Positions 16,468 through 34,066 of a stretch of 64,000 bases of DNA are shown one piece after another. Numbering within the stretch: position 1 is the first letter of the stretch; each line of letters opens with the position of its first letter. Position numbers and translations under genes: made by a program. The DNA comes from Candidatus Eiseniibacteriota bacterium. GTDB lineage: Bacteria > Eisenbacteria > RBG-16-71-46 > JACRLI01. The notes under the pieces are model-generated. The model worked only from the letters and a program-made list of their open reading frames with translations, was not told the DNA's origin and ran no database searches. The stretch covers positions 247,405 to 311,404 of the forward strand of contig JACRLI010000014.1 in assembly GCA_016235265.1 (NCBI GenBank). Reading direction: 5' to 3'.

Positions 16468-16991
16468 GGGGCCGCCTCCGCGGGCACCGGCGGCGCGAGC
16501 GTGATCAGGCTGGCGCCGCCGTCCACGGACTGGCCCACCTGCACGTGGATCTTGTCCACCTTCCCCGGGGCCGGCGCGCCCAGCTCGTTCTGCATCTTCA
16601 TCGCTTCCATCACCACCAGCGCCTGGCCTTCCTGCACCTCGTCGCCGGCGGCCACCTTCACCGCCACGATGAGCCCCGGCATGGGGGCCTTGAGCGCCAC
16701 CGGGCCGGTCACGGCCTTCTTGCGCTCGGGCCTGCGGGTGCGCGCGCGCACCTCGTCGAGCACCGTCATCTCGTGGGTGGCGCCGCCGAACCGCACCCGG
16801 AACAGGTCGCCCTCGCGGTCCACCGCCACCTCGCGGCTGCGCCCCTCGGTGAGGATGGAGTACGCGCCGGCCGAAAGCTCGGCGCAGTCGATGTAGGATT
16901 CCACGCCGTCCAGCAGCACCTTCCAGCCGCTGCCCGCGGGGATGAACTCCACCCAGCGCTCCTTTTCCCCGATCCGCACGCTGTACTTCAT
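16464..16991 (-). CDS. biotin carboxyl carrier protein-like (biotinyl/lipoyl domain protein)
   Basis: C-terminal EAMKMQNEL biotinylation motif. Starts [14 protein letters not shown] overlap with the biotin carboxylase stop, and a 4-bp overlap with the downstream mutase gene. Confidence 0.8.
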
Positions 16992-18505
16992 ATCCGGCCT
17001 CCCGCCCCCGGCCGGCCGGCCCGCTTCCAGGCCCCGCCGACCCCGTCGCCCGTCGCGGCCACCGCCTCCACGCGCGCCCCGCCCGTGGAAGGGTGCAGCA
17101 TCGCGTGCAGCGCCGCCGCGCGGACCGCCAGCGCCTCCTCCTCCTCGGTGGGTTGCACCGCCTGCGGATGGTAGAACTGGGCCACCATGCCCACGTCGCA
17201 GCGGCCTTCCACGAACTCGGGGTGGTTCAGCGCCCAGCGGTGGAAGGGGATCGAGGTCTTCACGCCCTCGATCACGTACTCGTGCAGCGCGCGCAGCATC
17301 CGGCGGCGCGCCTCGTTGCGGTCGCGGCCCCACGCGATCAGCTTGCCCACCAGGGAGTCGTAGTACAGCGTGATCTCGGAGCCCGGGTACACCCCCGCGT
17401 CGTTGCGCAGGCCCGGGCCGCTGGGCAGCCGGAATCTCGAGATCTTCCCGATGGAGGGCATGAAGTTCTTCTCGGGGTCCTCCGCGGTGATGCGGCACTC
17501 GATGGCGTGGCCGCGCGGCTGGATGTCCGCCTGCGCGAACGGCAGCTTGCCCCCGCTGGCCACGAACAGCTGCAGCTTCACCAGGTCGAGCCCGGTGACC
17601 ATCTCGGTCACGGGGTGCTCCACCTGCAGCCGCGCGTTGACCTCCAGGAAGTAGAAGTTCTGGTCCTTGTCCACCATGAACTCGGCGGTGCCGGCGTTGG
17701 TGTAGCCGGCCTGCAGCGCCAGGCGCACGGCGCAATCGCCCATGGCCCGGCGCACCTCGTCGCGCAGGTTGGGGGCGGGGGTTTCCTCGATCAGTTTCTG
17801 GTGGCGGCGCTGCACGGAGCAGTCGCGCTCGCCCAGGTACACGGCGCTGCCGTGATGGTCGGCCAGGAACTGGATCTCCACGTGGCGCGGGCGCTCGAGG
17901 TACTTCTCGAGGTACACCTCGTCGCTGGAGAAGGCGGCCTTGGCTTCCCCGCGCGTCAGCTCCAGCGCGGAGGCCATCTCCTCCTCGGCGCGCACCACGC
18001 GCATTCCCTTGCCGCCCCCGCCCGCGGAGGCCTTGAGCAGCACCGGGTAGCCGATCTGCTTCGCCTCGTGGAGGGCCTCCTCCAAGTTGCGCAGCGGCTT
18101 TTCCAGCCCGGGCACCATGGGCACCCCGGCCTTGCTGGCCAGGCGGCGCGCGGCCAGCTTGTTGCCCAGCGCGTTCATCGCCTCCCAGGACGGGCCGATG
18201 AAGGCCATGCCGGCCTTCTGGACCGCCTTCGAAAAGTCGGCATTCTCCGCCAGAAAGCCATAGCCCGGGTGCACCGCTTCGGCGCCGCAGCGCTTCGCGA
18301 TCTCCAGCAGCTTGTCCACGTTGAGGTAGCTTTCGCGGGCTGGCGGGGGACCTAGCAGGTAGGCTTCGTCGGCATGCAGCACATGGAGCGAGCGGCGGTC
18401 GGCTTCCGAGTAGACGGCCACACTGCCCACCCCGAGTTCCTTGAGTGCGCGGCTCACGCGCACGGCGATCTCGCCACGGTTGGCGATGAGCACCTTCTTG
18501 AACAC
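16988..18505 (-). CDS. accC: biotin carboxylase (AccC-type ATP-grasp)
   Basis: (V)[52 protein letters not shown] start at 18505 with GGAGG upstream. It is unclear whether this is the acetyl-CoA or the propionyl-CoA carboxylase paralogue. Confidence 0.85.
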
Positions 18506-18573
18506 GGGCACCTCCCCTCCACAATCGGCCAAAACCACGCTTCAGCATAGACCCGGTGCGGGGAGGGAGCAAG

Positions 18574-18599
18574 CTTGGTTGCATGCTTTGGTTGCATGC
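18574..18599. repeat. 13-bp direct tandem repeat (C/T)TTGGTTGCATGC x2 in the intergenic region at the left edge of the defence island
   Basis: Seen directly at 18574-18586 and 18587-18599. It contains the GCATGC core that recurs at 28453-28472 and 29448-29455. Confidence 0.6.
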
Positions 18600-18604
18600 A
18601 GTTG

Positions 18605-21600
18605 TTAGACTGCCCCCTTCGATGGTCCATCGGTGAACTTCCCGGCCCCGGCGAAACGCGTCCGGATGTACTCATCGGCGCTGCCTGCCACGAGCTTCAC
18701 CGTGCCCGGCCCGCTCCTCACAAAGAAGTCGCCGTCCTTGCTCGATTCCATTCCACTCCACTTCAGGAATACCGGCTCGGGGCTCCGCTGGCAGGTGGCC
18801 ACGCACACGGTCTTGCCCTGCACCATCTGGGTCTTCGTATCGATGCAGGTCCCGGCCCGATCGCCGAGGCCGTTGCGGACTGCCAGCGCGAGGTGCCGCA
18901 TGAACTTGTCGTCGCTCTCGAGCCGGTCCTTCTCGATCCCAACGATGGATCCGTCATCGGCGACGCCGATCAAGAGGTCGCCACCTTCGGTGTTCAGGAA
19001 CGCGGCGATGGTCTTCAGCACGGCGTGGGTCACAGCCGTGTCGTCCTGCCGGTCTTCCTGGAGGTTCCAGCGGAGCGTGGATTTGAAGTCGAGCGTCTTC
19101 GACCCACCGCGCTTGATCAGCTCCTCGGCGTTACGGTGGGCGCGCAGGTACTGGTCGAAGAGGAAGTTCTTGACGGTCTCGCCGAAGGCGCGGTCGTCGG
19201 TGATGCGCTTGTAGAGATCGAAGTTCGAGTCGACGATCTCCTGGATCACGTGCTCGACCTTCTGATCGAAAGTCAGCCGCACGTTTTCGCGGGTGTTGGC
19301 GCGCGCGGCGGCGTCGAGCGCCGCGTCGTCGTCGAGCTTTGCCATCATCTGCCCGAGAGTGACGCGATGCTCGGGGCCGAGGTTCAGACCGAAGCGCTCG
19401 TTCAACTCGGCGATAATGCGGGAGAGCGTCTCCAGCTCCTCCGGCGTGGTGCCGTGGCCCTGCTTGGTGCTCACGGGTTCGAGCACGCCGGGCCTGCGCT
19501 CAAGCGCGATCTTGCCGCTGCCGGTCTGCTGGATCCGGTACGACTCCATGTCGATGTTCTGCTGCACCTCACGGGGCAGCTCAGCGCGATCGGCGGGCAG
19601 GAGGCGCCGCAGGTGCCGCGCGAAGACGTAGAGCTTCTCCAGGTCGGCGTCGGCAAAGGTCAGGACCTGGGCCAGAAACGCGTAGAGCCGCACGTAGTCG
19701 GTGAGCTGACCGCGGAGGTCATGTCGCTCCTCCTCGGAGAGCGCCCCAAAGCGCTCGACTACGGGCGCGAGCACCGAATAGAGCCGGTCCTGTGTCGCCT
19801 TGGGGTCGAAGTAGACCTTGGCGAAGGCCTTCACATCGGCCTCGGTGTAGACCGGGAAGGCACCGAGTCGCGTCTGAATCTCGTATAGGAGGTTCGGGTC
19901 GGTCGCCTCCGAGAGCAGCGTGGTCTCGTAGTAGGGCTCGAACGCGGTCTTGATCTCGTCCGACTCGTTGGCGAAGTCGAGGACCATCGTGCCCTTCTTC
20001 TCGGGAGGCAGCGTGCGGTTGAGGCGCGAGAGTGTCTGTACGGCGTTCACGCCACCGAGCTTCTTATCCACATACATCGTATGCAGCAGCGGTTGGTCGA
20101 ACCCGGTCTGGAACTTGTTGGCCACGATCAGGAACCGGTGCTCGGGTTGCTCGAATGTCTTCGCCGTCTGCGCCTCCGGAAAGCCATTCATGCCTGATTC
20201 AGTGTATGACCGCCCGCCGTCCTGCACGGTGCCCGAGAACGCTACCAGGGCCTTGAACGGGTACCCGCGCTCGGCCAGGTACTTGTCCGCCGCCAGTCTG
20301 TAACGCACTGCATGCAGTCGAGAGCGGGTGACGATCATCGCCTTCGCCCTGCCACCGATCTCGCCCTGCACCTGGGTGGCGAAGTGCTCGACGCAGATCC
20401 TGACTTTCTCGCCGATCGCGTGCGGGTGCAGCTCGACGAACGACTTGAGCAGGTACTCGGCCTTCTTCTTGTCGTAGCGCGGGTCGTCCTCGACCTTCTT
20501 CAGCAGCCGCCAGTACGCCTTGTAGGTCGAATAGTTCGCCAGCACGTCGAGGATGAATCCCTCCTCGATCGCCTGGCGCATGCTGTAGAGGTGGAAGGGC
20601 GCGAACTTTCCGTCGGGGCGCTTCGTGCCGAATAGTTCAAGCGTCTTCGGTTTCGGCGTGGCCGTGAAGGCGAAGGTCGAGAGGTTGGGAAGCCGCCCGC
20701 GCTTCTCCATCTCGGCCAGGATCGCGCTCTCCAGCTCCTCCTCGGGCGTCGCCGCCTCCGCCTCTTCCATCTCCGCCTCTTCGAGCGAGCCCGAGCTGAG
20801 CACGGCCTTGAGGCTCTTCGTGCTCTCGCCCGACTGCGAGGAGTGCGCCTCGTCGACGATCAGGGCGAAGCGCTTGCCCGGCAGCTCGCCAATCTCCTTC
20901 GCGATCACGGGGAACTTCTGGAGCGTGGTGACGATGATCGTCTTCCCCGACTCAAGCGCGTCCTTGAGCTGGCGCGAGGTCGTGTCGATGTTTTCGACCA
21001 CGCCGAGCGTCTGCTCGAACTGGCGCATCGTAGTCTGGAGCTGGCGGTCGAGCACGCGCCGGTCGGTGATGACCACGATCGAGTCGAAGACGCGTCGGTC
21101 GCCCGCGTCGTGCAGCGTCGCGAGCTGATGGGCGAGCCAGGCAATGGTGAAACTCTTGCCGCTGCCGGCCGAGTGCTGGATCAGGTAACGTCGCCCGGCA
21201 CCCAGAGCGCGTGCATCGGTCACGAGCTTGCGTACGCAGTCAAGCTGCTGGTAGCGCGGGAAGATCAGGAAGTGCCGGCCGGTCTTGCGCCCCTTCTCGT
21301 CCTCTTCCTCGACCTCGTGGATGAACTGGCGCACGAGGTCGAGCACGCTGTCGCGCGACCAGGTCTCCTCCCAGAGATAGGCGGTCGCATAGCCGCTCCG
21401 GGTGGGAGGCACGGGCGGGTTGCCAGCGCCGCCGAACTTGCCCTGGTTGAAGGGCAGGAAGCGCGTCCTCGGTCCGGCGAGCCGGGTCGTGACGTAGACC
21501 AGGTCGGGATCCACCGCGAAGTGCGCGAGACAGCGGCCGTAGGCGAGCAGCGGCTCGCGCGGATCGCGATCGGTCTTGTACTGGCGGATCGCGTCCTCGA

Positions 21601-22159
21601 CGTCCTGGCTGTTGAGGGGGTTCTTGAGCTCGGCGGTGAAGATCGGGATGCCGTTCAGGAACAGCACCAGATCGAGGCTGTTCTCGTTCTTCGTACTGTA
21701 GTGGACCTGGCGCACCACGGCGAAGAGGTTCGCAGCGTGCAGCCGCCGGGTCTCCTCGTTGAGCGCGCTCGCGGGACGGAAGTAGGCGAGGCGGAACTTG
21801 CAGCCCGAATCCTTGAGGCCGTTGCGCAGGACGTCGAGCGCCCCGCGGCGCTCGATCTCGGCGGCGAGGCGCTTCAAGAACTGCTCCCGGGCGGCCGCGC
21901 CGTGGTGCTGCTCGAGCTTCTTCCACTCCTTGGGTTGCGTGGCTAGGACGAAGTCCAGCACGTCGCGTGGCAGGAGGCAGAGCGTGCGGTCGTAGTGCTC
22001 CGGCTTGCGCTTGCGGTAGCCGCCCGGCGGTCTGTCACCAAATGGCGGCGGCGTCTCGCGCACGGCGGTAGTTTCCCCCGAGCATGCGTCCGGGCCGTGC
22101 TGGAGCAGGGCGCACTCAATCGCCTCCTCGAAGGAGCGTTCGGAGATCTCGGGGATCAT
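18605..22159 (-). CDS. hsdR: type I restriction endonuclease subunit R (HsdR) with a C-terminal AlbA_2/Schlafen-like domain fusion
   Basis: N-terminal HsdR nuclease domain; SF2 helicase motifs (AGSGKSFTIAWLAHQL; VDEAHSSQSG). The C-terminal 130 aa (TLDFKSTL...KTIAAFLNTEGGDLLIGVADDGSIVGIEKDRL) match the AlbA_2 (PF04326-like) signature. Confidence 0.88.
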   Translation of the reverse strand: MIPEISERSFEEAIECALLQHGPDACSGETTAVRETPPPFGDRPPGGYRKRKPEHYDRTLCLLPRDVLDFVLATQPKEWKKLEQHHGAAAREQFLKRLAAEIERRGALDVLRNGLKDSGCKFRLAYFRPASALNEETRRLHAANLFAVVRQVHYSTKNENSLDLVLFLNGIPIFTAELKNPLNSQDVEDAIRQYKTDRDPREPLLAYGRCLAHFAVDPDLVYVTTRLAGPRTRFLPFNQGKFGGAGNPPVPPTRSGYATAYLWEETWSRDSVLDLVRQFIHEVEEEDEKGRKTGRHFLIFPRYQQLDCVRKLVTDARALGAGRRYLIQHSAGSGKSFTIAWLAHQLATLHDAGDRRVFDSIVVITDRRVLDRQLQTTMRQFEQTLGVVENIDTTSRQLKDALESGKTIIVTTLQKFPVIAKEIGELPGKRFALIVDEAHSSQSGESTKSLKAVLSSGSLEEAEMEEAEAATPEEELESAILAEMEKRGRLPNLSTFAFTATPKPKTLELFGTKRPDGKFAPFHLYSMRQAIEEGFILDVLANYSTYKAYWRLLKKVEDDPRYDKKKAEYLLKSFVELHPHAIGEKVRICVEHFATQVQGEIGGRAKAMIVTRSRLHAVRYRLAADKYLAERGYPFKALVAFSGTVQDGGRSYTESGMNGFPEAQTAKTFEQPEHRFLIVANKFQTGFDQPLLHTMYVDKKLGGVNAVQTLSRLNRTLPPEKKGTMVLDFANESDEIKTAFEPYYETTLLSEATDPNLLYEIQTRLGAFPVYTEADVKAFAKVYFDPKATQDRLYSVLAPVVERFGALSEEERHDLRGQLTDYVRLYAFLAQVLTFADADLEKLYVFARHLRRLLPADRAELPREVQQNIDMESYRIQQTGSGKIALERRPGVLEPVSTKQGHGTTPEELETLSRIIAELNERFGLNLGPEHRVTLGQMMAKLDDDAALDAAARANTRENVRLTFDQKVEHVIQEIVDSNFDLYKRITDDRAFGETVKNFLFDQYLRAHRNAEELIKRGGSKTLDFKSTLRWNLQEDRQDDTAVTHAVLKTIAAFLNTEGGDLLIGVADDGSIVGIEKDRLESDDKFMRHLALAVRNGLGDRAGTCIDTKTQMVQGKTVCVATCQRSPEPVFLKWSGMESSKDGDFFVRSGPGTVKLVAGSADEYIRTRFAGAGKFTDGPSKGAV

Positions 22160-23517
22160 GCGACCTCCTTCCGCACGTCGATCCTGCCCGTCACGGCGGC
22201 TGAGATGAGCGCGGCGCGGAGTTCCTGGAGGCGGTCGATGGCATCGCGGACTTTTGCGACCAGGGCGTCGATTCGCGCCGTCTCCCGATCAAGGACAACT
22301 GCAATGGCGACTTGCTCCGAATGGGGCGGCACCATCATGTGCATTCGCGACAGGTGTGAGGGACCGAAGTGCTGAATCGCACTCCCGCAGCGAGCAAGCT
22401 CTGTCTGTGTGAGAAAAGCTCCAGAAAGAAGGAACCACCGAAGAAAAGTCCTCACCATCGTGCCGGCGCGTGGTCGCATGATGATGATGCCTGTGTAGGG
22501 AACGGCACCTTGAGTTTCCACGTCCACCTCAGAGCAGAAGCCAGTCGAGGCGCTTCCGCTAATCAGAAGATCGCCGATCCGAACGCAGAAGTGATCCCAC
22601 CTCCGATGGACCAAGTCGGGTGAAAGGTAGTTGCAGCCACTGAGACTTGCCCTTCGTCCGCCGATGCCAGCAATCCGAAGCAACGGAATACCATCGTTCG
22701 TGAAATCAGACGCCATGATCCCCGGGCCTTCCAGGAAACGTACTTCTCTCTTAAGCGGCTTCACCTCCCAATGCGCGGGAATCTCTCCCAGCCACTCGAC
22801 ACCGGAGTCCTTCGTCGGGACACACGGGTCGAGGCCATTGGTGACGGCGCGCGTGATGAGGGCGGTGCGCTGCTCCTGTAGCAGCGCGATTAGCCGCTCC
22901 TTCTTCGCTACCAGCGCATCGATCCGCGCCGTCTCCCGGTCGAGGAAGGCGGCGATGGCGCGTTGCTCGGGGATGGGGGGGCTCGCCAGCTCGTACGTCG
23001 CCATCTCGCTTTCGTTGATAGCGGGAAAGCTCACGCCCTTGGAGTTCGCCACGACGCGCTCGACGAAGTACGGAGCTCGCAGGGCATACGCGGCGTAGTC
23101 GGTCGTCAGATCGTCCACGGGCCGGACGACAGCGAAGCCTGTCGAGACAACCATGCCAGGTTCTGGATTGCGGATCGGGGCGATTGCGCGGAGGTACGTG
23201 CGCACGGTCGACACGACCACGTCGCCGTCGCGCACGAGTCTTCGGGCACGGGATGGAGCCGAGGAGAACGCGAGTTGTTCCTGTTCGACGATTCGCCCGA
23301 GGCTGTTAACGCCTCCGATGTCCACGTAGACCATCTCGCGCCCGGGATCGGTGTCCTCCATGAGCGACTCCGGGTTCAGCGTGGCCAGATGCTTCAGCCG
23401 CTTCACCTCCCAATGCGCCGGAATCTCCCCCAGCCACTCGACGCCGGAGTCCTTGTAGGCCGGGTACGGCTTGAAGCGCGGGCGCGCGGGCGGCAGCGGC
23501 TGCACGGATTCCTTCAT
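22156..23517 (-). CDS. hsdS: type I restriction-modification specificity subunit (HsdS), two target-recognition domains
   Basis: The repeat DSGVEWLGEIPAHWEVK(R/P)LK occurs twice, and the conserved coiled-coil spacer LDRETARIDALVAK also occurs twice. Start is ATG at 23517, in an ATGA overlap with the upstream gene; the ORF-track N-terminal extension is spurious. Confidence 0.9.
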   Translation of the reverse strand: MKESVQPLPPARPRFKPYPAYKDSGVEWLGEIPAHWEVKRLKHLATLNPESLMEDTDPGREMVYVDIGGVNSLGRIVEQEQLAFSSAPSRARRLVRDGDVVVSTVRTYLRAIAPIRNPEPGMVVSTGFAVVRPVDDLTTDYAAYALRAPYFVERVVANSKGVSFPAINESEMATYELASPPIPEQRAIAAFLDRETARIDALVAKKERLIALLQEQRTALITRAVTNGLDPCVPTKDSGVEWLGEIPAHWEVKPLKREVRFLEGPGIMASDFTNDGIPLLRIAGIGGRRASLSGCNYLSPDLVHRRWDHFCVRIGDLLISGSASTGFCSEVDVETQGAVPYTGIIIMRPRAGTMVRTFLRWFLLSGAFLTQTELARCGSAIQHFGPSHLSRMHMMVPPHSEQVAIAVVLDRETARIDALVAKVRDAIDRLQELRAALISAAVTGRIDVRKEVA

Positions 23518-24593
23518 GCCGTTACCCTCCGGCGCTGTCCGCTCTGGTAATCGGTCCAGACCTGATCCATGTCCAACTCTTTCATTGCTTCGCGCAGCCG
23601 TTCGATCGCCTTCTGCGAGTAGCGATCGAAGCATGCCTTGCCGATCGTGATGCGGCGATAGCAATCCGCATCGTCCTTGATCTTCAGATGGCGGATCAGC
23701 GCCGTGGTCTTGGGTCCCGACAGCCCAAGGTGCTCCGCCACCTGATCCCGGCCGAGGTTGTAGAAGCCGAGCGAGTCCACCTTGTGAACCGCCACGACGC
23801 TGGCTCCGGGCGTGCCTTCGGGCACGAGCTGGATCGGAATCCCTTCCTTCTTCGCGATCCGCAGGTCGAGGGACGGGCCGGCCCCTGTGGCGGTGAGCTC
23901 GATCGCGGCGACGCCGGGGAAGACATCACTCCACTGCGAGCCCTTGCTGATCGAATCGCCGAGCTTGCGCAGCTCGCCATCGGTCGGCTGGATGCGGTCG
24001 CCCCGCATGGCGCCGTCGACGATCGCGAGCGCCCGGAGTTTGGCGGCAGCCTCGACCTTCCGTCGCTTGCCGGGCGTGAGGAGCCGCTGCACCTCCCTGG
24101 CCTCCTGCTCGAAGAGGGTCGCGAGATCGGTCGGCGGCGTGGTCGAGAGCGGCAGGACGCGAGGCGGAAGATGGACCTTGAGATCCTGATCGAACACCGC
24201 TCGGACGACATCGCGAAACAACGTCAGCCCGGCCTGGGCGTGGATGTAGAGGTGCTGTTCCGAGAGGTCGACCAGGTGGTGCTGGGCGGCGTCGCGCAGC
24301 GTGTTGATCGCCTGTAGCTGAAGGACCTGCTCCTGGCTCAAGAACCGGACCGAGCCGTCGCTAAGCGCCTTTCGCAGGCACTCGTCGAATCCGATCGTCT
24401 GCTTCTCCCGCGGCTTCCGGATCGCTCCTCCCCGATGCAGGATCGAAGCCTTGAGCAGCATCTCGAACGCGTGATCCAGCAGGATCAAGACGGCATCGAC
24501 GCGGCCCCGGTCCCAGGGCCGGTTGTAATGCTCGATGCTGAGCACGAGCGAGTCGACCGCCTTCGCGAAGAGCAGCCTGGATTCGCGCTTCAT
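23514..24593 (-). CDS. uncharacterized protein embedded in the type I RM operon (N-terminal alpha-helical domain + C-terminal HTH-like region)
   Basis: Real start is MKRESRLLFAKAVDSLVLSIEHYNRPWDRGRVDAVLILLDHAFEMLLKASIL at 24593 (ATGA overlap with the abiEii stop). C-terminal LGFYNLGRDQVAEHLGLSGPKTTALIRHLK resembles a winged helix. No motif was confidently recognised; it may be a DUF family associated with RM operons. Confidence 0.6.
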   Translation of the reverse strand: MKRESRLLFAKAVDSLVLSIEHYNRPWDRGRVDAVLILLDHAFEMLLKASILHRGGAIRKPREKQTIGFDECLRKALSDGSVRFLSQEQVLQLQAINTLRDAAQHHLVDLSEQHLYIHAQAGLTLFRDVVRAVFDQDLKVHLPPRVLPLSTTPPTDLATLFEQEAREVQRLLTPGKRRKVEAAAKLRALAIVDGAMRGDRIQPTDGELRKLGDSISKGSQWSDVFPGVAAIELTATGAGPSLDLRIAKKEGIPIQLVPEGTPGASVVAVHKVDSLGFYNLGRDQVAEHLGLSGPKTTALIRHLKIKDDADCYRRITIGKACFDRYSQKAIERLREAMKELDMDQVWTDYQSGQRRRVTA

Positions 24594-25522
24594 CGCGAGC
24601 GTTCCTCGCTCGGATTCCACGGGCCGCTCGGCAGCCAGGTCTGCGCGAACGGCTCGGTCGCGACGATGCTGTCCCGAAGCGGACCGAGGAAGCTCGTGAT
24701 CCGCTCGCCGATGGCGCCGAACCGCACCGGAGGTGGAATCAGCACGGCGCCCGCTGCGAGGTAGTTGCGCCAGCGAGTCGTGAGTTCCGGCAGGTGATAG
24801 AAGGCGGTGGTGAGAGCCCGCGGCGCCTCCTCCGTCCACGGCGTGCGTCGCCGCTCGAAGCAGGCGGCGACGGCGTGCTGCAGCGCAGCCCCATCGAACT
24901 CGAAGGCACCGGCCAGGGCCCAGACGTCGTGGAAGTCCTTCATCCGGCTGTTCCGCGTGTCGAGCTTGACCATGGCCTCGAACTTCTCCGCCACCGTCTG
25001 CTCGCGCGGATAGGCGCGCAGGCGAGGCGCCGGCAGCGACGAAAGCATCGTCGGATAGGTGATCTCCTCCGGCGCGATGGCGATCGCGTCGCCCACGCCG
25101 AGGTCGAGCTGGACCGCGATGCGGGCCTGACCCAAGAACGCACGAAAGCGTGCGCGCTTGCCGGAGTACTCCTCCTCGGCCCGGATCGCCTCCACGACCA
25201 GTTCGGAGAGATCGAAGCGGAGCCCGTCCTCGGGACACGCCACCGCGCAGATCTCCGCGATCAACGACAGGATCGCGGGGTCGTCCATGGTGCATGAAGC
25301 CAGCACGTCGACATCGCGGGTCGCCCGGTAGGGATCCGGCATCCAGACCGCAAGCAGGCTGGCGCCCTTCAGGATGCAGCGATCTCGCGCCGCGCAGGCG
25401 CCGAGGCGGAAGAGCAGCCGCTCGCCGGCGAAGCGCGCGAGCGTGCGCTCGAACTCCTCACCGCGTGCCTTGGCTTGGTCGAGCAGGCGCGCCCGGACCG
25501 AGGCCGCGACATCGGGGCTCAT
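24590..25522 (-). CDS. abiEii: AbiEii/AbiGii-family nucleotidyltransferase toxin (type IV TA, DUF1814-like)
   Basis: MSPDVAASVRARLLDQAKARGEEFERTLARFAGERLLFRL followed by a GS..DVDV-type NTase core (ILKGASLLAVWMPDPYRATRDVDVL). Confidence 0.8.
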   Translation of the reverse strand: MSPDVAASVRARLLDQAKARGEEFERTLARFAGERLLFRLGACAARDRCILKGASLLAVWMPDPYRATRDVDVLASCTMDDPAILSLIAEICAVACPEDGLRFDLSELVVEAIRAEEEYSGKRARFRAFLGQARIAVQLDLGVGDAIAIAPEEITYPTMLSSLPAPRLRAYPREQTVAEKFEAMVKLDTRNSRMKDFHDVWALAGAFEFDGAALQHAVAACFERRRTPWTEEAPRALTTAFYHLPELTTRWRNYLAAGAVLIPPPVRFGAIGERITSFLGPLRDSIVATEPFAQTWLPSGPWNPSEERSR

Positions 25523-26226
25523 ATCAACCTCACGTCGAGGGCGGCGCTCAGGCGGCGCGACGGAAGGACCTCGACGACGCGCGTCAGCTCGGCGACGGTC
25601 ACCTTGCGCTGGCGCAGGCCGTCCTGGAGCGCCTCCATCGCCGCTTCCGGGCCGACGAGCCGCTCGAAGCGGAAGCAGTCGGCCACGGTGCGCGCGGGCG
25701 AGGTGATTCGGGCCGGCACTCCCTCGAACGCCGTCTCCTGCACGCCGAAGTTCCAGGCCGGGCCGCTGAAACGCACGGTGCGCAGCTTCAGCTCGCGCAG
25801 TAGGGGCTTGCGCGCCTTGTGCGGGATGGCAAGCCAGACTTCCGCCGGCGCCTGGGTCCCGATGCCGTGGATCCGCAGTGCCGAGAGCAGGCAGACGATG
25901 CTGTTCGGCACGCGCGCGCAGGCCATGGCGATGGAGTAGTCCTCGGTCGGCTCGGCGCCCGTCAGGCGGTAGAGCCCACGTCCGACCCGCTCGACAAGCT
26001 TCGAGCGCAGCAGGGCTGGGAGGTGGTCCCGCGTCAGGCCAGCGTGTTCGAGCTGGGCAGCACGGAAAAAGCCGACGACCCCCGAACTGCGGAGTCGTTC
26101 GACCGGGTCCCGAGCCGCTCCTTGACCCGTTTTGTCGGCACGTCGAGGTGACATGACGACAATATGCGTCATGGGCCCGGCTCTCGTCAACACAAGATGT
26201 CGGCGCCTCTCCGTGAGTGCCGACAT
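25519..26226 (-). CDS. abiEi: AbiEi-family antitoxin / transcriptional regulator (wHTH + AbiEi C-terminal domain)
   Basis: GVVGFFRAAQLEHAGLTRDHLPALLRSKLVERVGRGLYRL is a typical AbiEi N-terminal HTH. ATGA overlap with abiEii. The start could be a few codons into the ORF. Confidence 0.75.
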   Translation of the reverse strand: MSALTERRRHLVLTRAGPMTHIVVMSPRRADKTGQGAARDPVERLRSSGVVGFFRAAQLEHAGLTRDHLPALLRSKLVERVGRGLYRLTGAEPTEDYSIAMACARVPNSIVCLLSALRIHGIGTQAPAEVWLAIPHKARKPLLRELKLRTVRFSGPAWNFGVQETAFEGVPARITSPARTVADCFRFERLVGPEAAMEALQDGLRQRKVTVAELTRVVEVLPSRRLSAALDVRLI

Positions 26227-26232
26227 CTTGTG

Positions 26233-28359
26233 TCAGCCTCGAGGGGCGGCCGCGCCCGTCACCTCGGCCAGCATCCGCAGGATTTCCTGCTCGATCCCCC
26301 GGATCTCGCCCTCGATCTCCTCGATCGGGCGCGGCGGGGTGTAGCGGTAGAAGTAGCGATTGAAGTTGATCTCGTAGCCGACGAGGCCGCCCTGGCCGTC
26401 CCTCGCATCCCGCTTGCTCGTGTCGATCCAGGCGTCGGGGACGTGGGGCTTGACCTCCCGCTCGAGAAACGCCTCGACGCGCTCTGCGAGCGGCACGCTC
26501 TCCGTGTCGCGCAGCTCCGGGTCCGGCTCGGGGTTGCTGTCCTTGTCCCGGCAGATGGCGGCGGACTCGTCGCGCTCGGACAGCGCGGAGAGGATGGCCT
26601 TGCGCGCCGGCGCCGGGAGCTTCACGCCGGTTTTCTTCGCGGCGGCATCGAGCAGGCGCTCGAACTCGTCGCGGTCCTTGACGAGGGTGCCGGGCAGCCC
26701 GCGCACGAGCTTACGGATCGCCCCCTGCAACGCACGCCCGTCGACCTGCTCCTTCGCCCCCGCAGCGCCCTTCTTCTTCGACTGCGCCAGCGCCTGGAAG
26801 CCCTTCTCCTCCTCGAGGCGGGCGATGCGCTCAACGCTCGCCTGGAAGCTGAGCCGCAGGGGGCGCTCGACGGTGATCTTGCGGAAGCCGAAGTGGGTGG
26901 TTGGAAAGATGCGGCTGACGACGACGTCCTCTTCCTTGCCGTCCTTCGCCACTTTCCGCGTCTCGCCATCCTTGAAGGCGGACAGGACCTTCAGGATGTC
27001 CTGCGAGCGTTCGAGGGGGATCTCGCGCCGCTTGTCACCGAGGCTCTTGCGCATCGGGACCCAGAATGAGATGGCGTCGATCAGCTGAACCTTGCCCTTC
27101 CGCGCCGGCGCCTTGCGGTTCGTCACCACCCACACATACGTGGCGATGCCCGTGTTGTAGAAGAGCTGCTCGGGGAGTGCGATCAGCGCTTCCAGCAGGT
27201 CGTTCTCCAGGATGAAGCGGCGAATCTCGCTCTCGCCGCTGCCGGCATCGCCCGTGAACAGCGGCGAGCCGTTCATGATGATGGCGATCCGCGAGCCGCC
27301 GTCCTTCGGGTCCCTTGCGTGCGCCAACATGTGCAGCAGGAACAGGAGCTGGCCGTCGCTGATACGCGGGAGCCCCGGTCCGAAGCGGCCCGAGGCGCCG
27401 CGCTCGTGCTCGGCACGCACGGCGTCCTCGTCGCGCTTCCAGTCCTTGCCGTACGGCGGGTTGGCGATCAGGTAATCGAACGTCTGGCCGGAGTGGCGGT
27501 CGTTGGAGAGAGTGCTGCCGTATGCGATGTTGTCGGCGTCGCGTCCGGTCGGGTCCTTCATGAAGAGATCGGACTTCGAGACAGCCCAGGTTTCGGGATT
27601 CACCTCCTGGCCGAAGAGATGGATCTCCGCACCCGGGTTCATCGCGGGCCGGAGGATCTCGCCGTTCTTCCGCAGGCCGACGGTGATGTGCTCCTTGGTG
27701 ATCATCAGCATGCCGCCTGAGCCGCAGCACGGGTCGTACACGGTGCGGATCGCCTTCTTGGCCTGGATTTCCTTCTCATCACCGGCAAGCATCAGATCCA
27801 CCATCAGATGCACAACATCGCGCGGCGTGAAGTGCTCGCCCGGATTCTCGTTCAGCGCTTCGTTGAACTTCCGGATCAGCTCCTCGAAGATCGTGCCCAT
27901 CGTCGGGTTGTCAATTCTGTCCGGATGGAGATCGACGTTCTTGAAGCGCTCGAGCACCTGGAAGAGCAGCCCCGCCTCATCGAGCTTGCTGATCGTGTTG
28001 TCGAAATCGAACTTCTCCAACACCTCACGCATGTTCGGGCTGAAGCCGGCGATGTAGTTGCGAAGATTGGCGGCGAGGTGCGGCGCGTCGGCCAGCAGCT
28101 TCTCGAAGTCGTAGCGGGAGGTGTTGTAGAACGCGAAGCCCGCTATCTTCCGCAGCTGTGGATCGAGATTCTCGAGCTTCTTGCCCCGCAGCTCGGCTTG
28201 CTTGCCGAGGACCTTGCCCTTGGTAGGAGCGAGCACGCAGTCGAGGCGGCGCAGGACGGTCAGTGGCAGGATCACGTCCTGGTACTTGCCGCGCTTAAAG
28301 GTGTCGCGGATCAGGTCCGCAACGCCCCAGAGGAAGCTGACGATCTCGCTATGGTTCAC
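26233..28359 (-). CDS. hsdM: type I restriction-modification DNA methyltransferase subunit (HsdM), N6-adenine MTase
   Basis: HsdM N-terminal domain; SAM-binding VYDPCCGSGGML; catalytic LIANPPYG; 708 aa with a long C-terminal extension. Confidence 0.92.
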   Translation of the reverse strand: MNHSEIVSFLWGVADLIRDTFKRGKYQDVILPLTVLRRLDCVLAPTKGKVLGKQAELRGKKLENLDPQLRKIAGFAFYNTSRYDFEKLLADAPHLAANLRNYIAGFSPNMREVLEKFDFDNTISKLDEAGLLFQVLERFKNVDLHPDRIDNPTMGTIFEELIRKFNEALNENPGEHFTPRDVVHLMVDLMLAGDEKEIQAKKAIRTVYDPCCGSGGMLMITKEHITVGLRKNGEILRPAMNPGAEIHLFGQEVNPETWAVSKSDLFMKDPTGRDADNIAYGSTLSNDRHSGQTFDYLIANPPYGKDWKRDEDAVRAEHERGASGRFGPGLPRISDGQLLFLLHMLAHARDPKDGGSRIAIIMNGSPLFTGDAGSGESEIRRFILENDLLEALIALPEQLFYNTGIATYVWVVTNRKAPARKGKVQLIDAISFWVPMRKSLGDKRREIPLERSQDILKVLSAFKDGETRKVAKDGKEEDVVVSRIFPTTHFGFRKITVERPLRLSFQASVERIARLEEEKGFQALAQSKKKGAAGAKEQVDGRALQGAIRKLVRGLPGTLVKDRDEFERLLDAAAKKTGVKLPAPARKAILSALSERDESAAICRDKDSNPEPDPELRDTESVPLAERVEAFLEREVKPHVPDAWIDTSKRDARDGQGGLVGYEINFNRYFYRYTPPRPIEEIEGEIRGIEQEILRMLAEVTGAAAPRG

Positions 28360-28452
28360 TGAGTTCGCTCTCCGTCCTCGCTGTTGGTGGCTGCGTCGTC
28401 ATTCGGACTGTCTAACGCTCGGCATCAGCGGCGGCGCGGAGCGCCGTCAGCT

Positions 28453-28472
28453 GCATGCTATTGTTAGCATGC
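28453..28472. promoter_or_regulatory. 20-bp perfect palindrome GCATGCTA-TTGT-TAGCATGC upstream of hsdM (candidate operator)
   Basis: Perfect 8-4-8 inverted repeat about 95 nt upstream of the hsdM ATG (28359), in the 120-bp spacer between the TIR-like gene and hsdM. Confidence 0.55.
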
Positions 28473-28479
28473 TCTGTTC

Positions 28480-29322
28480 TCACAACGCCTTGTTCATATC
28501 CACAGATAGCCCAGCGGCCTTCAGCTCCTTGGCCAACTTCAACCGCCAGCCGCCCTCCATATCAAGCTTGACGTAGAGTACTCCCGAGTAGTCGGAAAGC
28601 ACCTCAATGCCCTCCACAAACAGGGCGCACACGCGGGACCGTCCAAGCCGGCCAAGGAAGAACCCGAGTTCAAGGATCACGTTCTGTCGCGCACGAAGGT
28701 GCAGCTCGTCATTCGATGCAGTCGCCAAGCCGCCGCGATCGTCGCCGGTGAGAAGCACGACTGCGAACCCTACGTCGCTGTAGTCTTCGAACTTCTCGAT
28801 AATAGTCCGGCCGCAATTGGGCTGCTCACGAAGCAAGATCACCTCTTGATCCAGCTTCTCAAGGAAGCGCGCCACGCTCTGGATTGCCGCCTCGTCGTGA
28901 CCGTGCACCAGGAAGATCCGGTGGCCCTTTGGGGCGTTCGCCAATACGCCGGAAACAGTGCCGGCCCCTTGGAGTTGCTGCTCCGTCCTGAGCAGCTCAA
29001 GCAAACCATCAAGACGGGCAAGCTGCGTTTGGAGGCTTTCCGCCCGGTGGCTCTCCCACCATCCTTCACCTGCCCCCATCGGGAAATCCCCGTACTTTCC
29101 CACATCCGTCACGCTGCTCACGTTTGGCGAGTTGCGACCGAACGCCTTCTCAAGGTAATTCCGGGTCACCAGCTCCCACTGCCCGTGGGAATCACTACTG
29201 AGGGGACGCGATTGCAGGAGTTCGCGTCCCTTCCCGAGTTGCTCCTCCAGGAGGCGGATTCCCGTGGCAGAGTCAACATCCGGGCGTCCGGGAGGGTCTG
29301 GCTCTTTGCGTTTACTTGCCAT
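28480..29322 (-). CDS. TIR-like nucleotide-binding domain protein (COG4271-type), N-terminal domain of unknown function
   Basis: C-terminal half IFLVHGHDEAAIQSVARFLEKLDQEVILLREQPNCGRTIIEKFEDYSDVGFAVVLLTGDD...RARQNVILELGFFLGRLGRSRVCALFVEGIEVLSDYSGVLYVKLD matches the 'predicted nucleotide-binding protein containing TIR-like domain' signature. SD GGAGAGAGA. Lower GC than the flanks. Confidence 0.8.
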   Translation of the reverse strand: MASKRKEPDPPGRPDVDSATGIRLLEEQLGKGRELLQSRPLSSDSHGQWELVTRNYLEKAFGRNSPNVSSVTDVGKYGDFPMGAGEGWWESHRAESLQTQLARLDGLLELLRTEQQLQGAGTVSGVLANAPKGHRIFLVHGHDEAAIQSVARFLEKLDQEVILLREQPNCGRTIIEKFEDYSDVGFAVVLLTGDDRGGLATASNDELHLRARQNVILELGFFLGRLGRSRVCALFVEGIEVLSDYSGVLYVKLDMEGGWRLKLAKELKAAGLSVDMNKAL

Positions 29323-29770
29323 CCGGTCTCTCTCTCCGTCGCTCCGCGCCTCTTAACGAGAATTCGACCGCCATGGATCAGCAGTTCGGCAGCCCCGTCC
29401 AATCTAGTCGCTCCCGCTACCCTCCGGTGCAAGCCCTCTGGAAAACTGACCTTGCATGCACGCTCCCCGACTCCCCCCGCGGTAGGCAGCACGAAACGTC
29501 CAGGCCCGGTCAGTATAAAGCCGGTCCACCGGACTCACCACCCCAAGCCGCTGGGATTCAGCACGGGGGCATCAGCAGCCAGGCTGCGAGCTGGGGGCCT
29601 CGCGGACACAGGCGCAGCTCGATCCACCCGTACAACGTATGCCCCAGGTGATGATCCAGCGCAGCGCGCACTTGGAACGCTTTCGGGCGTTGCTGTCGCG
29701 ACACCGGGGCCTGTCCCGGATCTTCCGGAAGCCGCACTCTCCCTGCCGCAACCTCCGTGTCGGCGCCACA

Positions 29771-29799
29771 TTGACACCCCCGCGCAAAGCCGATAGCTT
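29771..29799 (+). promoter_or_regulatory. candidate sigma70 promoter upstream of yajC
   Basis: TTGACA (29771-29776), 17 nt, TAGCTT (29794-29799); about 118 nt upstream of the yajC ATG. Confidence 0.4.
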
Positions 29800-29917
29800 C
29801 CGATCCGTGTGTCCCGCGCGCTCCACGGGTGGTGCCCGGGGGGTTCCAGGGAGCCAGGCGCGCGCCGATTGCCCGCCCCTATCCGACCCGCAACTTCAAT
29901 GGTTTCAAGGAGGTTTC

Positions 29918-30244
29918 ATGTCCTTCCTCCCGCTCCTCGCCGCCGCGCCGGGAGGCCCGCAGATGTCCGGCTGGCAGGCCCAGCTGATCAACCTGGCGCC
30001 GCTGTTCCTGATCTTCGTGGTGTTCTACTTCGTGCTCATCCGTCCGCAGCAGCAGCGCCAGAAGAAGCTCGCCGAGATGATCGGCGGCATGGCCAAGGGC
30101 GACAAGGTGGTGACCTCCGGCGGGATGGTGGGCACGGTGTGGGCGGTGCGCGACAACGAGGACACCGTGGTCATCCAGGTGGCCGACACGCGTCTCGACT
30201 TCCTGAAGAGCGCCGTTGTCCAGGTCATCAAGCCCGGCAAGTAG
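29918..30244 (+). CDS. yajC: preprotein translocase subunit YajC
   Basis: MSFLPLLAAAPGGPQMSGWQAQLINLAPLFLIFVVFYFVLIRPQQQRQKK...GGMVGTVWAVRDNEDTVVIQVADTRLDF. SD AAGGAGG. ORF 29639..30244 has a spurious 5' extension. Confidence 0.9.
   Translation: MSFLPLLAAAPGGPQMSGWQAQLINLAPLFLIFVVFYFVLIRPQQQRQKKLAEMIGGMAKGDKVVTSGGMVGTVWAVRDNEDTVVIQVADTRLDFLKSAVVQVIKPGK

Positions 30245-32992: not shown

Positions 32993-34062
<1,070 letters not shown>

Positions 34063-34066
<4 letters not shown>

What the first reader, a model, noticed from the sequence alone, without database searches (positions are those of the whole stretch)
23514..24593. Uncharacterised 359-aa protein translationally coupled between abiEii and hsdS
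I could not recognise a catalytic motif. The N-terminal half is helical (LFAKAVDSLVLSIEHYNRPWDRGRVDAVLILLDHAFEMLLKASIL). The C-terminal region has a winged-helix-like segment (LGFYNLGRDQVAEHLGLSGPKTTALIRHLK). Its 4-bp overlaps on both sides mean it is co-expressed stoichiometrically with the toxin and the specificity subunit. It is a candidate novel RM-associated sensor or regulator, or a new abortive-infection component.
Basis: inference. Interest (0 to 1): 0.65.

Follow-up and report, generated by a model that had tools for sequence, protein, structure and literature searches.

The report
HEPN RNase gene inside restriction operon
The 359-aa protein is a real gene, but it belongs to an already catalogued family: a predicted HEPN ribonuclease (Pfam DUF3644, PADLOC candidate PDC-S19) fused to a DNA-binding winged helix, usually found inside type I restriction-modification operons and never tested experimentally.

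Summary
The ORF is real. It lies on the minus strand (24593->23514), encodes 359 aa, and has 4-bp ATGA overlaps with abiEii upstream and hsdS downstream.

It is not a novel protein:
- It matches Pfam DUF3644 (54.8 bits; cut-off 27.6). It matches PADLOC 'phage defence candidate' PDC-S19 end to end (E 1.7e-160).
- DUF3644 was assigned to the HEPN RNase superfamily in 2013 (EC042_2821 family, 'occurs in R-M operons, fused to wHTH').
R100 and H105 are invariant in 71 representatives down to 30% identity.
- AlphaFold2/Foldseek gives an N-terminal HEPN bundle (2hsb, prob 1.0) and a C-terminal excisionase/MerR-like winged helix (RacA, prob 0.99).

Context in 80 species genomes:
- 50 carry the gene among same-strand type I RM genes, mostly in the order hsdM-hsdS-[gene]-hsdR.
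- AbiE is nearby in only 4, so the AbiE link is incidental.
- Stand-alone copies also exist on plasmids.

Best explanation: a latent single-gene HEPN RNase defence or abortive-infection effector riding in the RM operon. A PrrC-like guard of the RM complex is possible but unproven.

Verdict: new member of a known, uncharacterised candidate family; modest interest.

The parts
23514..24593 (-). Target gene: 359-aa DUF3644-type HEPN + winged-helix protein (PADLOC PDC-S19 family)
   Evidence: Translation. Pfam PF12358 E 1.2e-14, 54.8 bits against cut-off 27.6. PADLOC PDLC04951 PDC-S19 E 1.7e-160, residues 1-355 to profile 1-355/357. 2730 homologues.
24171..24593 (-). N-terminal HEPN domain (aa 1-141), an all-alpha bundle
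   Evidence: AF2 helices 3-23, 31-53, 69-78, 87-105, 112-134, with pLDDT mostly 80-98. Foldseek match to HEPN protein AF_0298 (2hsb): prob 1.00, TM(target) 0.83, rmsd 2.6 A. The DUF3644 match covers aa 9-167.
24279..24296 (-). Predicted catalytic HEPN motif R100-D-A-A-Q-H105 (Rx4H)
   Evidence: Regex hit at residue 100. R100 and H105 are invariant in 33 close homologues and in 71/71 full-length 50%-cluster representatives at 30-59% identity, together with N24, E44 and K48.
23778..23846 (-). Conserved segment aa 250-272 (GIPIQLVPEGTPGASVVAVHKVD) that AF2 cannot place
   Evidence: Many invariant or near-invariant columns among >=60% homologues. pLDDT is below 50 in both models. The segment is less conserved in distant representatives. 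A partner-binding role is inference only.
23619..23774 (-). C-terminal winged helix-turn-helix (aa 274-325), followed by two helices to aa 358
   Evidence: AF2 pLDDT is about 90 here. Foldseek matches: RacA DNA-binding domain 5i41/5i44, prob 0.99, TM(target) 0.59-0.66, then MarR/ArsR; phage excisionase and MerR-like HTH in BFVD. E-values are weak (>=0.1). No Pfam hit for aa 150-359.
24590..25522 (-). abiEii (310 aa), upstream neighbour, 4-bp overlap with the target
   Evidence: Pfam AbiEii E 3.8e-39. PADLOC AbiEii E 1.6e-94. Overlap read.
25519..26226 (-). abiEi antitoxin/regulator (235 aa), 4-bp overlap with abiEii
   Evidence: Pfam AbiEi_4 E 4.4e-8. PADLOC AbiEi E 7e-54. Coordinates.
26233..28359 (-). 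hsdM, type I methyltransferase (708 aa), first gene of the operon
   Evidence: Pfam N6_Mtase E 2e-55 and HsdM_N E 8e-24. PADLOC MTase_I E 4.6e-268.
22156..23517 (-). hsdS specificity subunit (453 aa, complete with two TRDs), 4-bp overlap with the target stop
   Evidence: Pfam Methylase_S aa 35-201. NCBIfam match aa 273-446. PADLOC Specificity_I E 8e-111, aa 14-452.
18605..22159 (-). hsdR (1184 aa) with a C-terminal SLFN_AlbA_2 domain, 4-bp overlap with hsdS
   Evidence: Pfam HSDR_N, SWI2_SNF2, ResIII, T1R_D3-like, and SLFN_AlbA_2 at aa 1020-1155.

Best explanation
The gene encodes a single-polypeptide, latent HEPN ribonuclease of the DUF3644/EC042_2821 clade, catalogued by PADLOC as candidate PDC-S19. 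It is a self-contained defence or abortive-infection module carried inside a type I restriction-modification operon.

Proposed mechanism:
- The N-terminal HEPN domain, probably acting as a dimer with R100/H105 forming the active site, cleaves RNA once the protein is activated during phage or plasmid invasion. This arrests translation and blocks spread of the invader.
- The more variable C-terminal half (helical linker, beta-hairpin, excisionase/MerR-like winged helix) is the nucleic-acid-binding or sensor/regulatory part that keeps the RNase silent until triggered.
- Embedding in the operon, with ATGA coupling to abiEii, hsdS and hsdR, gives co-expression and co-transfer with the RM system as a second layer of defence.

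Shown: gene, family, fold, invariant motif, and operon embedding across phyla.
Inferred: RNase activity, latency, trigger, and defence phenotype.
For: - Family: Pfam DUF3644 above the gathering cut-off. PADLOC PDC-S19 full-length, E 1.7e-160.
- Literature: DUF3644 is the HEPN family EC042_2821, described as fused to wHTH/REase/ZnR and occurring in R-M operons (PMC3710099). PDC systems were defined by embedding in BREX/DISARM/type I RM (bioRxiv 10.1101/2024.01.29.577857).
- Fold: AF2 pLDDT 82.8. Foldseek match to the HEPN structure 2hsb, prob 1.0, TM 0.83.
- Active site: R100-D-x3-H105 is invariant in 33 close and 71 distant homologues, and every 100%-invariant residue lies in the HEPN half.
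- C-terminus: winged helix.
- Context: 50 of 80 species-level loci have same-strand type I RM genes, and 31 show the order hsdM-hsdS-[gene]-hsdR. The immediate upstream neighbour is HsdS in 34/70, and the downstream neighbour is HsdR in 15/64. Other neighbours are GmrSD, Abi_C, RhuM, Fic, MmeI and SLFN.
- Autonomy: stand-alone copies occur on Azospirillum and Xanthomonas plasmids, and N-terminal homologues occur in Streptococcus phage satellites.
- Spread: bacterial phyla plus archaea, and island GC below that of the flanks, as expected for mobile defence genes.
- Precedent: other HEPN single-gene systems defend and need the motif histidine (HEC-08 H128; Ishtar).
Against: - No experiment on any PDC-S19 member was found. 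A full-text search for 'PDC-S19' returned 0 papers.
- RNase activity, toxicity and anti-phage effect are therefore assumed from the superfamily.
- Some HEPN domains are non-catalytic, although those usually lose the Rx4-6H motif.
- No antitoxin or inhibitor is evident, so how the RNase is kept silent is unknown.
- The Foldseek E-values for the winged helix are weak (0.1-0.4), and aa 150-272 has no recognisable fold match.
- 62% embedding in type I RM is much higher than for most autonomous systems. This may mean the protein is not fully autonomous.
Confidence: 0.6

Rival explanations
1. PrrC/RloC-like guard of the restriction complex. The HEPN protein binds HsdS/HsdM and is held inactive by an intact type I RM complex. 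It is unleashed as an RNase when a phage anti-restriction protein (Ocr, ArdA or Stp-like) disables the complex.
For: - The gene sits directly next to hsdS in most loci. HsdS is the immediate upstream neighbour in 34/70, and 31/80 loci have the order M-S-[gene]-R.
- There is a 4-bp overlap with the upstream gene in 24 loci and with the downstream gene in 14.
- 62% embedding is unusually high. [quoted passage not shown]
- A conserved segment, aa 250-272, cannot be folded alone and could be a docking element.
- The PrrC precedent rests on established knowledge and the Anantharaman 2013 table.
Against: - 30 of 80 loci show no type I RM gene within the DNA held for the locus (up to 10 kb each side) by tblastn.
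- Plasmid copies stand alone or sit next to a type II RM.
- The associated type I systems belong to different HsdR families: SLFN-fused in the window and T1RH-like_C elsewhere. A specific protein-protein fit would have to be re-evolved repeatedly.
- There is no ABC-ATPase domain such as PrrC/RloC use for regulation.
- No interaction data exist.
Confidence: 0.2
2. Regulatory protein. The winged helix binds the operon's own DNA and controls RM and AbiE expression, like a controller (C) protein or RptR-type repressor. The HEPN fold would serve only as a dimerisation or ligand-binding scaffold.
For: - A C-terminal DNA-binding-type winged helix is present.
- Repressors of RM/defence islands are known, for example RptR (PMC12255303, listed; the paper was not read in detail).
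- The gene lies mid-operon.
Against: - The strictly invariant residues are the HEPN catalytic R and H plus N24, E44 and K48, not wHTH residues. The C-terminal half is the least conserved part.
- Controller proteins normally sit at the head of an operon and are small.
- The family occurs in very different operons and alone, so there is no common operator to regulate.
Confidence: 0.07
3. Third component of the AbiE system. It would be an accessory toxin or effector working with the AbiEii nucleotidyltransferase, in the manner of HEPN-MNT pairs.
For: - There is a 4-bp overlap with abiEii in the window.
- The same abiEi-abiEii-DUF3644 block occurs in the closest relatives L001, L009, L010 and L011.
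- AbiEii is a nucleotidyltransferase-fold protein, and MNT nucleotidyltransferases neutralise HEPN toxins (established knowledge).
Against: - Only 4 of 80 genome loci have AbiE genes near the DUF3644 gene.
- In L005, L007 and L050, AbiE is present but at other positions or distances.
- In L003 the abiEii slot is occupied by TIR genes instead.
- AbiE is a complete two-gene system on its own.
Confidence: 0.03
4. Artefact: a spurious ORF in high-GC DNA, or a frameshifted N-terminal fragment of hsdS.
For: The window is 63-78% GC with many long spurious ORFs on both strands. The frame is open for 593 codons.
Against: - There are thousands of full-length homologues of the same length.
- A confident AF2 model was obtained.
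- Pfam and PADLOC both match.
- HsdS is complete on its own.
Confidence: 0.01

Closest known systems
PADLOC PDC-S19 (single-gene phage defence candidate; Payne et al. 2024, bioRxiv 10.1101/2024.01.29.577857)
   Same: Full-length HMM match (E 1.7e-160, residues 1-355 of 359). The discovery context is also the same: a gene embedded in a type I RM operon.
   Different: Nothing detectable; this is a member. The candidate family itself has no reported experimental test. One search found no paper naming it, and the PDC-S19 entry was not found in the text held for the paper's supplementary tables, several of which are cut.
Pfam DUF3644 / HEPN family EC042_2821 (Anantharaman et al. 2013, PMC3710099)
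   Same: HEPN fold with a conserved Rx4-6H motif. The family is described as occurring in R-M operons and as fused to a wHTH in some members.
   Different: The prototype EC042_2821 has a C-terminal REase-fold domain (aa 240-420), with an N-terminal wHTH in some members. Here the wHTH is C-terminal and no REase-fold match was obtained.
HEC-08 (validated anti-phage HEPN protein, E. coli ECOR52)
   Same: A single polypeptide with an N-terminal DUF3644-type HEPN domain, embedded in another defence system. Defence needs the motif histidine H128.
   Different: Its C-terminus consists of Cys-rich zinc-ribbon-like domains, not a winged helix (sequence). There is no significant profile similarity to this family (hhalign prob 0.2) and no PADLOC cross-hit.
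PrrC / RloC anticodon nucleases
   Same: HEPN RNases embedded in type I RM operons that act as a back-up when restriction is disabled (table; established knowledge).
   Different: PrrC and RloC carry an N-terminal ABC-ATPase with a C-terminal HEPN. Here HEPN is N-terminal, there is no ATPase, and there is a C-terminal wHTH. About 38% of family members are not in RM operons.
Ishtar (ist1/ist2) anti-plasmid HEPN proteins of Acinetobacter baumannii (bioRxiv 10.64898/2026.07.06.735840)
   Same: Monogenic systems with an N-terminal HEPN domain (DUF3644 or DUF4145) plus a C-terminal alpha/beta domain of unknown function. They are often found near defence genes.
   Different: The sequences (XZW63086.1, MGQ1310977.1) could not be retrieved for comparison. 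PADLOC output for the ist1 and ist2 strains lists no PDC-S19, so they are not close relatives. Ishtar genes are stand-alone or integron-borne, not RM-embedded.
HEPN-MNT type II/VII toxin-antitoxin pairs (e.g. SO_3166/SO_3165)
   Same: A HEPN toxin with the Rx4-6H motif. The structural neighbour 2hsb is a small HEPN protein.
   Different: There is no cognate MNT gene. The protein is about three times larger, with extra domains. The adjacent AbiEii nucleotidyltransferase is not a conserved partner.

Membership tests
Pfam DUF3644 (PF12358) | Score above the curated gathering threshold of the family HMM | tested here: met
   54.8 bits against cut-off 27.6, E 1.2e-14, aa 9-167 to profile 3-166/183. 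PF12358 is also precomputed on nearly all listed homologues.
HEPN superfamily | All-alpha helical bundle fold | tested here: met
   The AF2 model has helices 3-23, 31-53, 87-105 and 112-134. Foldseek match to the HEPN crystal structure 2hsb: prob 1.00, TM(target) 0.83, rmsd 2.6 A over 135 columns.
HEPN superfamily | Conserved Rx4-6H motif with a polar residue after R | tested here: met
   R100-D-A-A-Q-H105. R and H are present in 71/71 distant representatives, and position 101 is D or N in 65/71.
HEPN superfamily | Metal-independent endoribonuclease activity | not testable with these tools
   This needs biochemistry. It is inferred from the intact motif only.
PADLOC PDC-S19 | Full-length match to the family HMM | tested here: met
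   PDLC04951 E 1.7e-160 (532 bits), residues 1-355 to profile 1-355/357. A second model, PDLC04947, gives E 1.8e-100.
PADLOC PDC-S19 | Embedded in a BREX, DISARM or type I RM system | tested here: met
   The window order is hsdM-abiEi-abiEii-[gene]-hsdS-hsdR, all on the minus strand. 50 of 80 related loci have same-strand type I RM genes.
PADLOC PDC-S19 | Anti-phage activity | not testable with these tools
   No published test was found. It is a candidate by definition.
PrrC/RloC anticodon nucleases | N-terminal ABC-type ATPase domain regulating a C-terminal HEPN domain | tested here: not met
   No ATPase domain in Pfam, NCBIfam or PADLOC. HEPN is N-terminal.
PrrC/RloC anticodon nucleases | Near-exclusive embedding in type I RM and latency imposed by the RM complex | tested here: inconclusive
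   62% of loci are RM-embedded and 38% are not. Stand-alone plasmid copies exist. Physical interaction is not testable here.
HEC-08 | Sequence/profile similarity plus C-terminal zinc-ribbon domains | tested here: not met
   hhalign probability 0.2 with only an 18-column match. The target has no CxxC clusters (sequence). No HEC hit in PADLOC.
Ishtar (ist1/ist2) | Homology to XZW63086.1 / MGQ1310977.1, including the C-terminal 5-7-strand, 3-helix domain | not tested
   The sequences were not obtainable. The only evidence is indirect: PADLOC lists no PDC-S19 in the ist1 and ist2 strains.
HEPN-MNT toxin-antitoxin | Conserved adjacent MNT nucleotidyltransferase antitoxin gene | tested here: not met
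   Neighbour census: upstream neighbours are HsdS 34/70 and AbiEii 2/70, with no NTP_transf_2 family among the top neighbours.
AbiE system (accessory component) | Conserved co-occurrence with abiEi/abiEii | tested here: not met
   AbiE genes are near the homologue in 4 of 80 genome loci.

The most novel reading that the evidence does not exclude
PDC-S19 proteins may be a new, ATPase-less class of restriction-complex guards. The HEPN-wHTH protein would dock on HsdS/HsdM, perhaps through the conserved segment aa 250-272 that cannot be folded alone. It would monitor the integrity or DNA engagement of the type I enzyme and fire as an RNase when a phage anti-restriction protein neutralises it. This would be a PrrC-like logic reached with a completely different architecture and spread across many bacterial phyla and some archaea.
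Probability: 0.15. Interest if true: 0.6.

Novelty: new member of a known kind. Interest (0 to 1): 0.3.

Why it matters
As it stands, this is an annotation upgrade. A 'hypothetical protein' in this six-gene defence operon can be labelled a DUF3644-type HEPN RNase candidate (PDC-S19) with a C-terminal winged helix.

The family is large: at least 931 50%-identity clusters, spanning many bacterial phyla and some archaea. It is tightly linked to hsdS and hsdR and has not been tested experimentally. A single set of toxicity, phage-challenge and R100A/H105A experiments would therefore characterise a widespread defence gene. The same experiments would tell whether type I RM operons commonly carry an RNase back-up other than PrrC/RloC.

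Tried and rejected
- NCBIfam gave no hit for the target.
- A profile search of PDB sequences gave only noise (E 0.51).
- Pfam on aa 150-359 alone gave nothing, even at E<=10.
- PHROGs gave one family of unknown function, covering the N-terminal half only.
- HEC-08 was compared by hhalign and rejected as a close relative.
- A literature search for 'PDC-S19' found nothing. The Payne supplementary tables are cut in storage and do not show the S19 entry.
- Ishtar protein sequences could not be obtained. Only the indirect PADLOC check was possible.
- The frameshifted-hsdS idea was rejected because HsdS is complete.
- The AbiE-accessory idea was rejected on co-occurrence.
- The promoter/terminator scan found nothing above shuffle expectation inside the operon, so it gave no information on operon boundaries.
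Full report
1. Observation

The coordinates are correct, but the gene is on the minus strand. The plus-strand translation contains a stop.

The raw sequence shows ATGA junctions on both sides:
- abiEii stop at 24592-24590 and target ATG at 24593-24591.
- Target stop at 23516-23514 and hsdS ATG at 23517-23515.
- GAGGA and GGAGGG Shine-Dalgarno-like elements lie 7-9 nt upstream of the two ATGs.

The same kind of overlap also joins abiEi to abiEii (25522/25519) and hsdS to hsdR (22159/22156). Five consecutive genes are therefore serially coupled.

The frame is open for 593 codons. The 359-aa start is validated by homologues of 352-362 aa that align from residue 1 and by the PADLOC profile alignment (residues 1-355 to profile 1-355/357).

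2. The operon

All genes below are on the minus strand.

| Gene | Coordinates | Evidence |
|---|---|---|
| CAP12/Pycsar-type TIR protein | 29322-28480 | Pfam E 1.9e-33 |
| hsdM | 28359-26233 | N6_Mtase, HsdM_N; PADLOC MTase_I E 4.6e-268 |
| abiEi | 26226-25519 | AbiEi matches in Pfam and PADLOC |
| abiEii | 25522-24590 | Pfam E 3.8e-39 |
| target | 24593-23514 | see section 3 |
| hsdS | 23517-22156 | complete, two TRDs; PADLOC E 8e-111 over aa 14-452 |
| hsdR | 22159-18605 | carries an extra C-terminal SLFN_AlbA_2 domain |

The target is thus not a fragment of hsdS. GC content across 18-29.5 kb is 0.60-0.67, against 0.70-0.78 in the flanks. This fits a horizontally acquired defence island.

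3. What the protein is

- Pfam places aa 9-167 in DUF3644 (54.8 bits; cut-off 27.6).
- PADLOC-DB matches the whole protein to PDC-S19 (E 1.7e-160).
- NCBIfam has nothing.

The literature explains both labels:
- Anantharaman et al. 2013 (PMC3710099) identified DUF3644 as a HEPN family, 'EC042_2821'. They described it with a conserved Rx4-6H motif, fused to wHTH, REase and Zn-ribbon domains, and occurring in R-M operons.
- Payne et al. [quoted passage not shown]
- A distantly related DUF3644-type HEPN protein, HEC-08, protects against phage. It loses that activity when the motif histidine is mutated.
- Monogenic HEPN proteins (DUF3644 or DUF4145) named Ishtar clear plasmid RP4.

4. Catalytic motif

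- In 33 homologues of 60-92% identity, R100 and H105 are invariant.
- In 71 full-length representatives of 50%-identity clusters (30-59% identical to the query), the only 100%-invariant positions are N24, E44, K48, R100 and H105. All five are in the HEPN half.
- Position 101 is D or N in 65/71, and the C-terminal half is the least conserved part.

This pattern points to a conserved catalytic centre joined to a more variable recognition or regulatory module.

5. Structure

- AlphaFold2 on the 33-sequence alignment gave mean pLDDT 82.8. The model shows:
  - helices 3-23, 31-53, 69-78, 87-105 and 112-134 (HEPN);
  - a helical linker (157-216);
  - a beta-hairpin (231-248);
  - a segment with pLDDT below 50 (253-272);
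  - helices 282-289 and 293-303 plus strands 312-317 and 320-325 (winged HTH);
  - two terminal helices.
- Foldseek against the PDB found the HEPN crystal structure 2hsb (prob 1.00, TM(target) 0.83, rmsd 2.6 A).
- A separate model of aa 171-359 matched the RacA DNA-binding domain (prob 0.99, TM(target) 0.59-0.66), then MarR/ArsR regulators.
- In BFVD the C-terminus matched phage excisionases and MerR-like HTH proteins.

6. Distribution and context

The family is large: 2730 hits at E<=1e-3 in a capped search and 931 50%-identity clusters (214 at E<=1e-30) in the exhaustive search. Almost all are unnamed or labelled 'hypothetical'.

A scan of one genome per species returned 182 relatives. The 80 best (52-94% identity) come from many bacterial phyla, among them Acidobacteriota, Planctomycetota, Chloroflexota, Actinomycetota, Nitrospirota and Pseudomonadota, together with Myxococcota and other former 'Deltaproteobacteria'. 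Two are archaea (Thermoplasmatales, Methanosarcinales). The nearest is a Deltaproteobacteria MAG at 94% identity.

tblastn with HsdM, HsdS, HsdR and AbiE queries gave these counts:
- 50 of 80 loci have same-strand type I RM genes, and 35 have all three.
- Among the 49 loci with at least 3 kb on each side, 30 have them.
- The dominant order is hsdM-hsdS-[gene]-hsdR (31 loci).
- The window's order, with the gene upstream of hsdS, is a minority.
- AbiE genes are nearby in only 4 of 80.
- The gene overlaps its upstream neighbour by 4 bp in 24 loci and its downstream neighbour by 4 bp in 14.

A Pfam census of immediate neighbours:
- Upstream: HsdS 34/70, MmeI-type enzymes 3, AbiEii 2, Abi_C 2.
- Downstream: HsdR 15/64, SLFN_AlbA_2 6, HsdS 5, GmrSD 3, RhuM 3, Abi_C 3, Fic 2.

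Called-gene contexts from metagenome assemblies agree:
- L001 repeats the window's six-gene cassette, including the SLFN-fused HsdR.
- L003 has TIR genes where abiEii would be.
- L005 and L007 have hsdM-hsdS-[gene]-hypothetical-DUF5131-...-hsdR.

On plasmids the gene is annotated 'DUF3644 domain-containing protein' or 'hypothetical'. It can stand alone (Azospirillum) or sit next to a type II RM (Xanthomonas). N-terminal-half homologues occur in Streptococcus phage satellites.

7. Mechanism

Shown:
- A real, widespread gene.
- A HEPN fold with an invariant catalytic dyad.
- A C-terminal winged helix.
- Strong but not obligatory embedding next to hsdS and hsdR.
- An incidental association with AbiE.

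Inferred:
- The protein is a latent RNase, probably dimeric as HEPN enzymes are. On infection it cleaves cellular and/or invader RNA.
- The C-terminal half acts as a nucleic-acid-binding sensor or autoinhibitor.

I rate the autonomous single-gene defence/Abi module reading at about 0.6.

The main rival is a PrrC-like guard that is physically controlled by the RM complex (0.2):
- For it: the tight hsdS adjacency, the frequent translational coupling, and the conserved segment that cannot be folded alone.
- Against it: the 38% of copies outside RM operons, the diversity of partner HsdR families, and the lack of an ATPase domain.

A purely regulatory role (0.07), an AbiE accessory role (0.03) and an artefact (0.01) are poorly supported.

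8. Comparison and novelty

The protein passes every sequence and structure test for DUF3644, for the HEPN superfamily and for PDC-S19.

It fails the defining-feature tests for:
- PrrC/RloC (no ABC ATPase);
- HEC-08 (no zinc ribbons; hhalign prob 0.2);
- HEPN-MNT pairs (no conserved MNT partner).

Ishtar could not be compared directly. PADLOC output for the Ishtar-carrying strains lists no PDC-S19, which argues against close kinship.

The finding is therefore a new member of an already catalogued, experimentally uncharacterised candidate family. Its general idea, an RM-associated defence component with a winged helix, does hold.

Interest is modest (0.3). It would rise if the guard hypothesis were demonstrated.

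Noticed in passing
window 18605-26226 (-): Five consecutive genes (abiEi, abiEii, DUF3644 gene, hsdS, hsdR) are each joined to the next by a 4-bp ATGA start/stop overlap. This is an unusually long chain of translational coupling across three different defence modules.
   Followed up: partly
window 18605-22159 (-), aa 1020-1155 of HsdR: HsdR carries a C-terminal Schlafen/AlbA_2 (SLFN_AlbA_2) domain fusion. The same fusion is in L001 and L011. In 6 of 64 related loci a separate SLFN_AlbA_2 (+HATPase_c_4) gene lies directly downstream of the DUF3644 gene, a recurrent association that remains unexplained.
   Followed up: partly
window 28480-29322 (-): A 280-aa protein with a CAP12/Pycsar-effector-type TIR domain (Pfam E 1.9e-33) lies immediately upstream of hsdM on the same strand. 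It is probably another defence gene of the island. No cyclase partner was looked for.
   Followed up: no
window 18000-29500 versus flanks: GC content of the RM/AbiE/TIR island is 0.60-0.67, against 0.70-0.78 in the flanking DNA. This suggests horizontal acquisition. The flanks hold housekeeping-type genes (YajC at 29639-30241, an RsmB-like methyltransferase at 33406-35550, and a biotin/lipoyl-domain protein at 16464-18584).
   Followed up: partly
window 23778-23846 (-), aa 250-272 of the target: The segment GIPIQLVPEGTPGASVVAVHKVD is highly conserved among homologues of at least 60% identity, but pLDDT is below 50 in both AlphaFold2 models. It may fold only on a partner.
   Followed up: partly
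L005 9115-10667 and L007 9217-10784: In two distant relatives the DUF3644 gene is followed, still inside the type I RM operon, by a conserved pair: a 274-280-aa hypothetical protein plus a DUF5131 protein. This is another embedded cassette of unknown role.
   Followed up: no
L003 6384-7925: In a 68%-identical relative's operon, the position held by abiEii in the window is occupied by ThsB-like TIR-domain genes next to a remnant abiEi. Modules appear to be swapped at the same slot of the RM operon.
   Followed up: no
phage collection hits H14-H23 (e.g. MK448336.1 1847-2470): Streptococcus phage satellites (Javan series) encode a hypothetical protein similar to the N-terminal HEPN half (25% identity, aa 1-201). 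DUF3644-type HEPN genes are therefore also satellite cargo.
   Followed up: no
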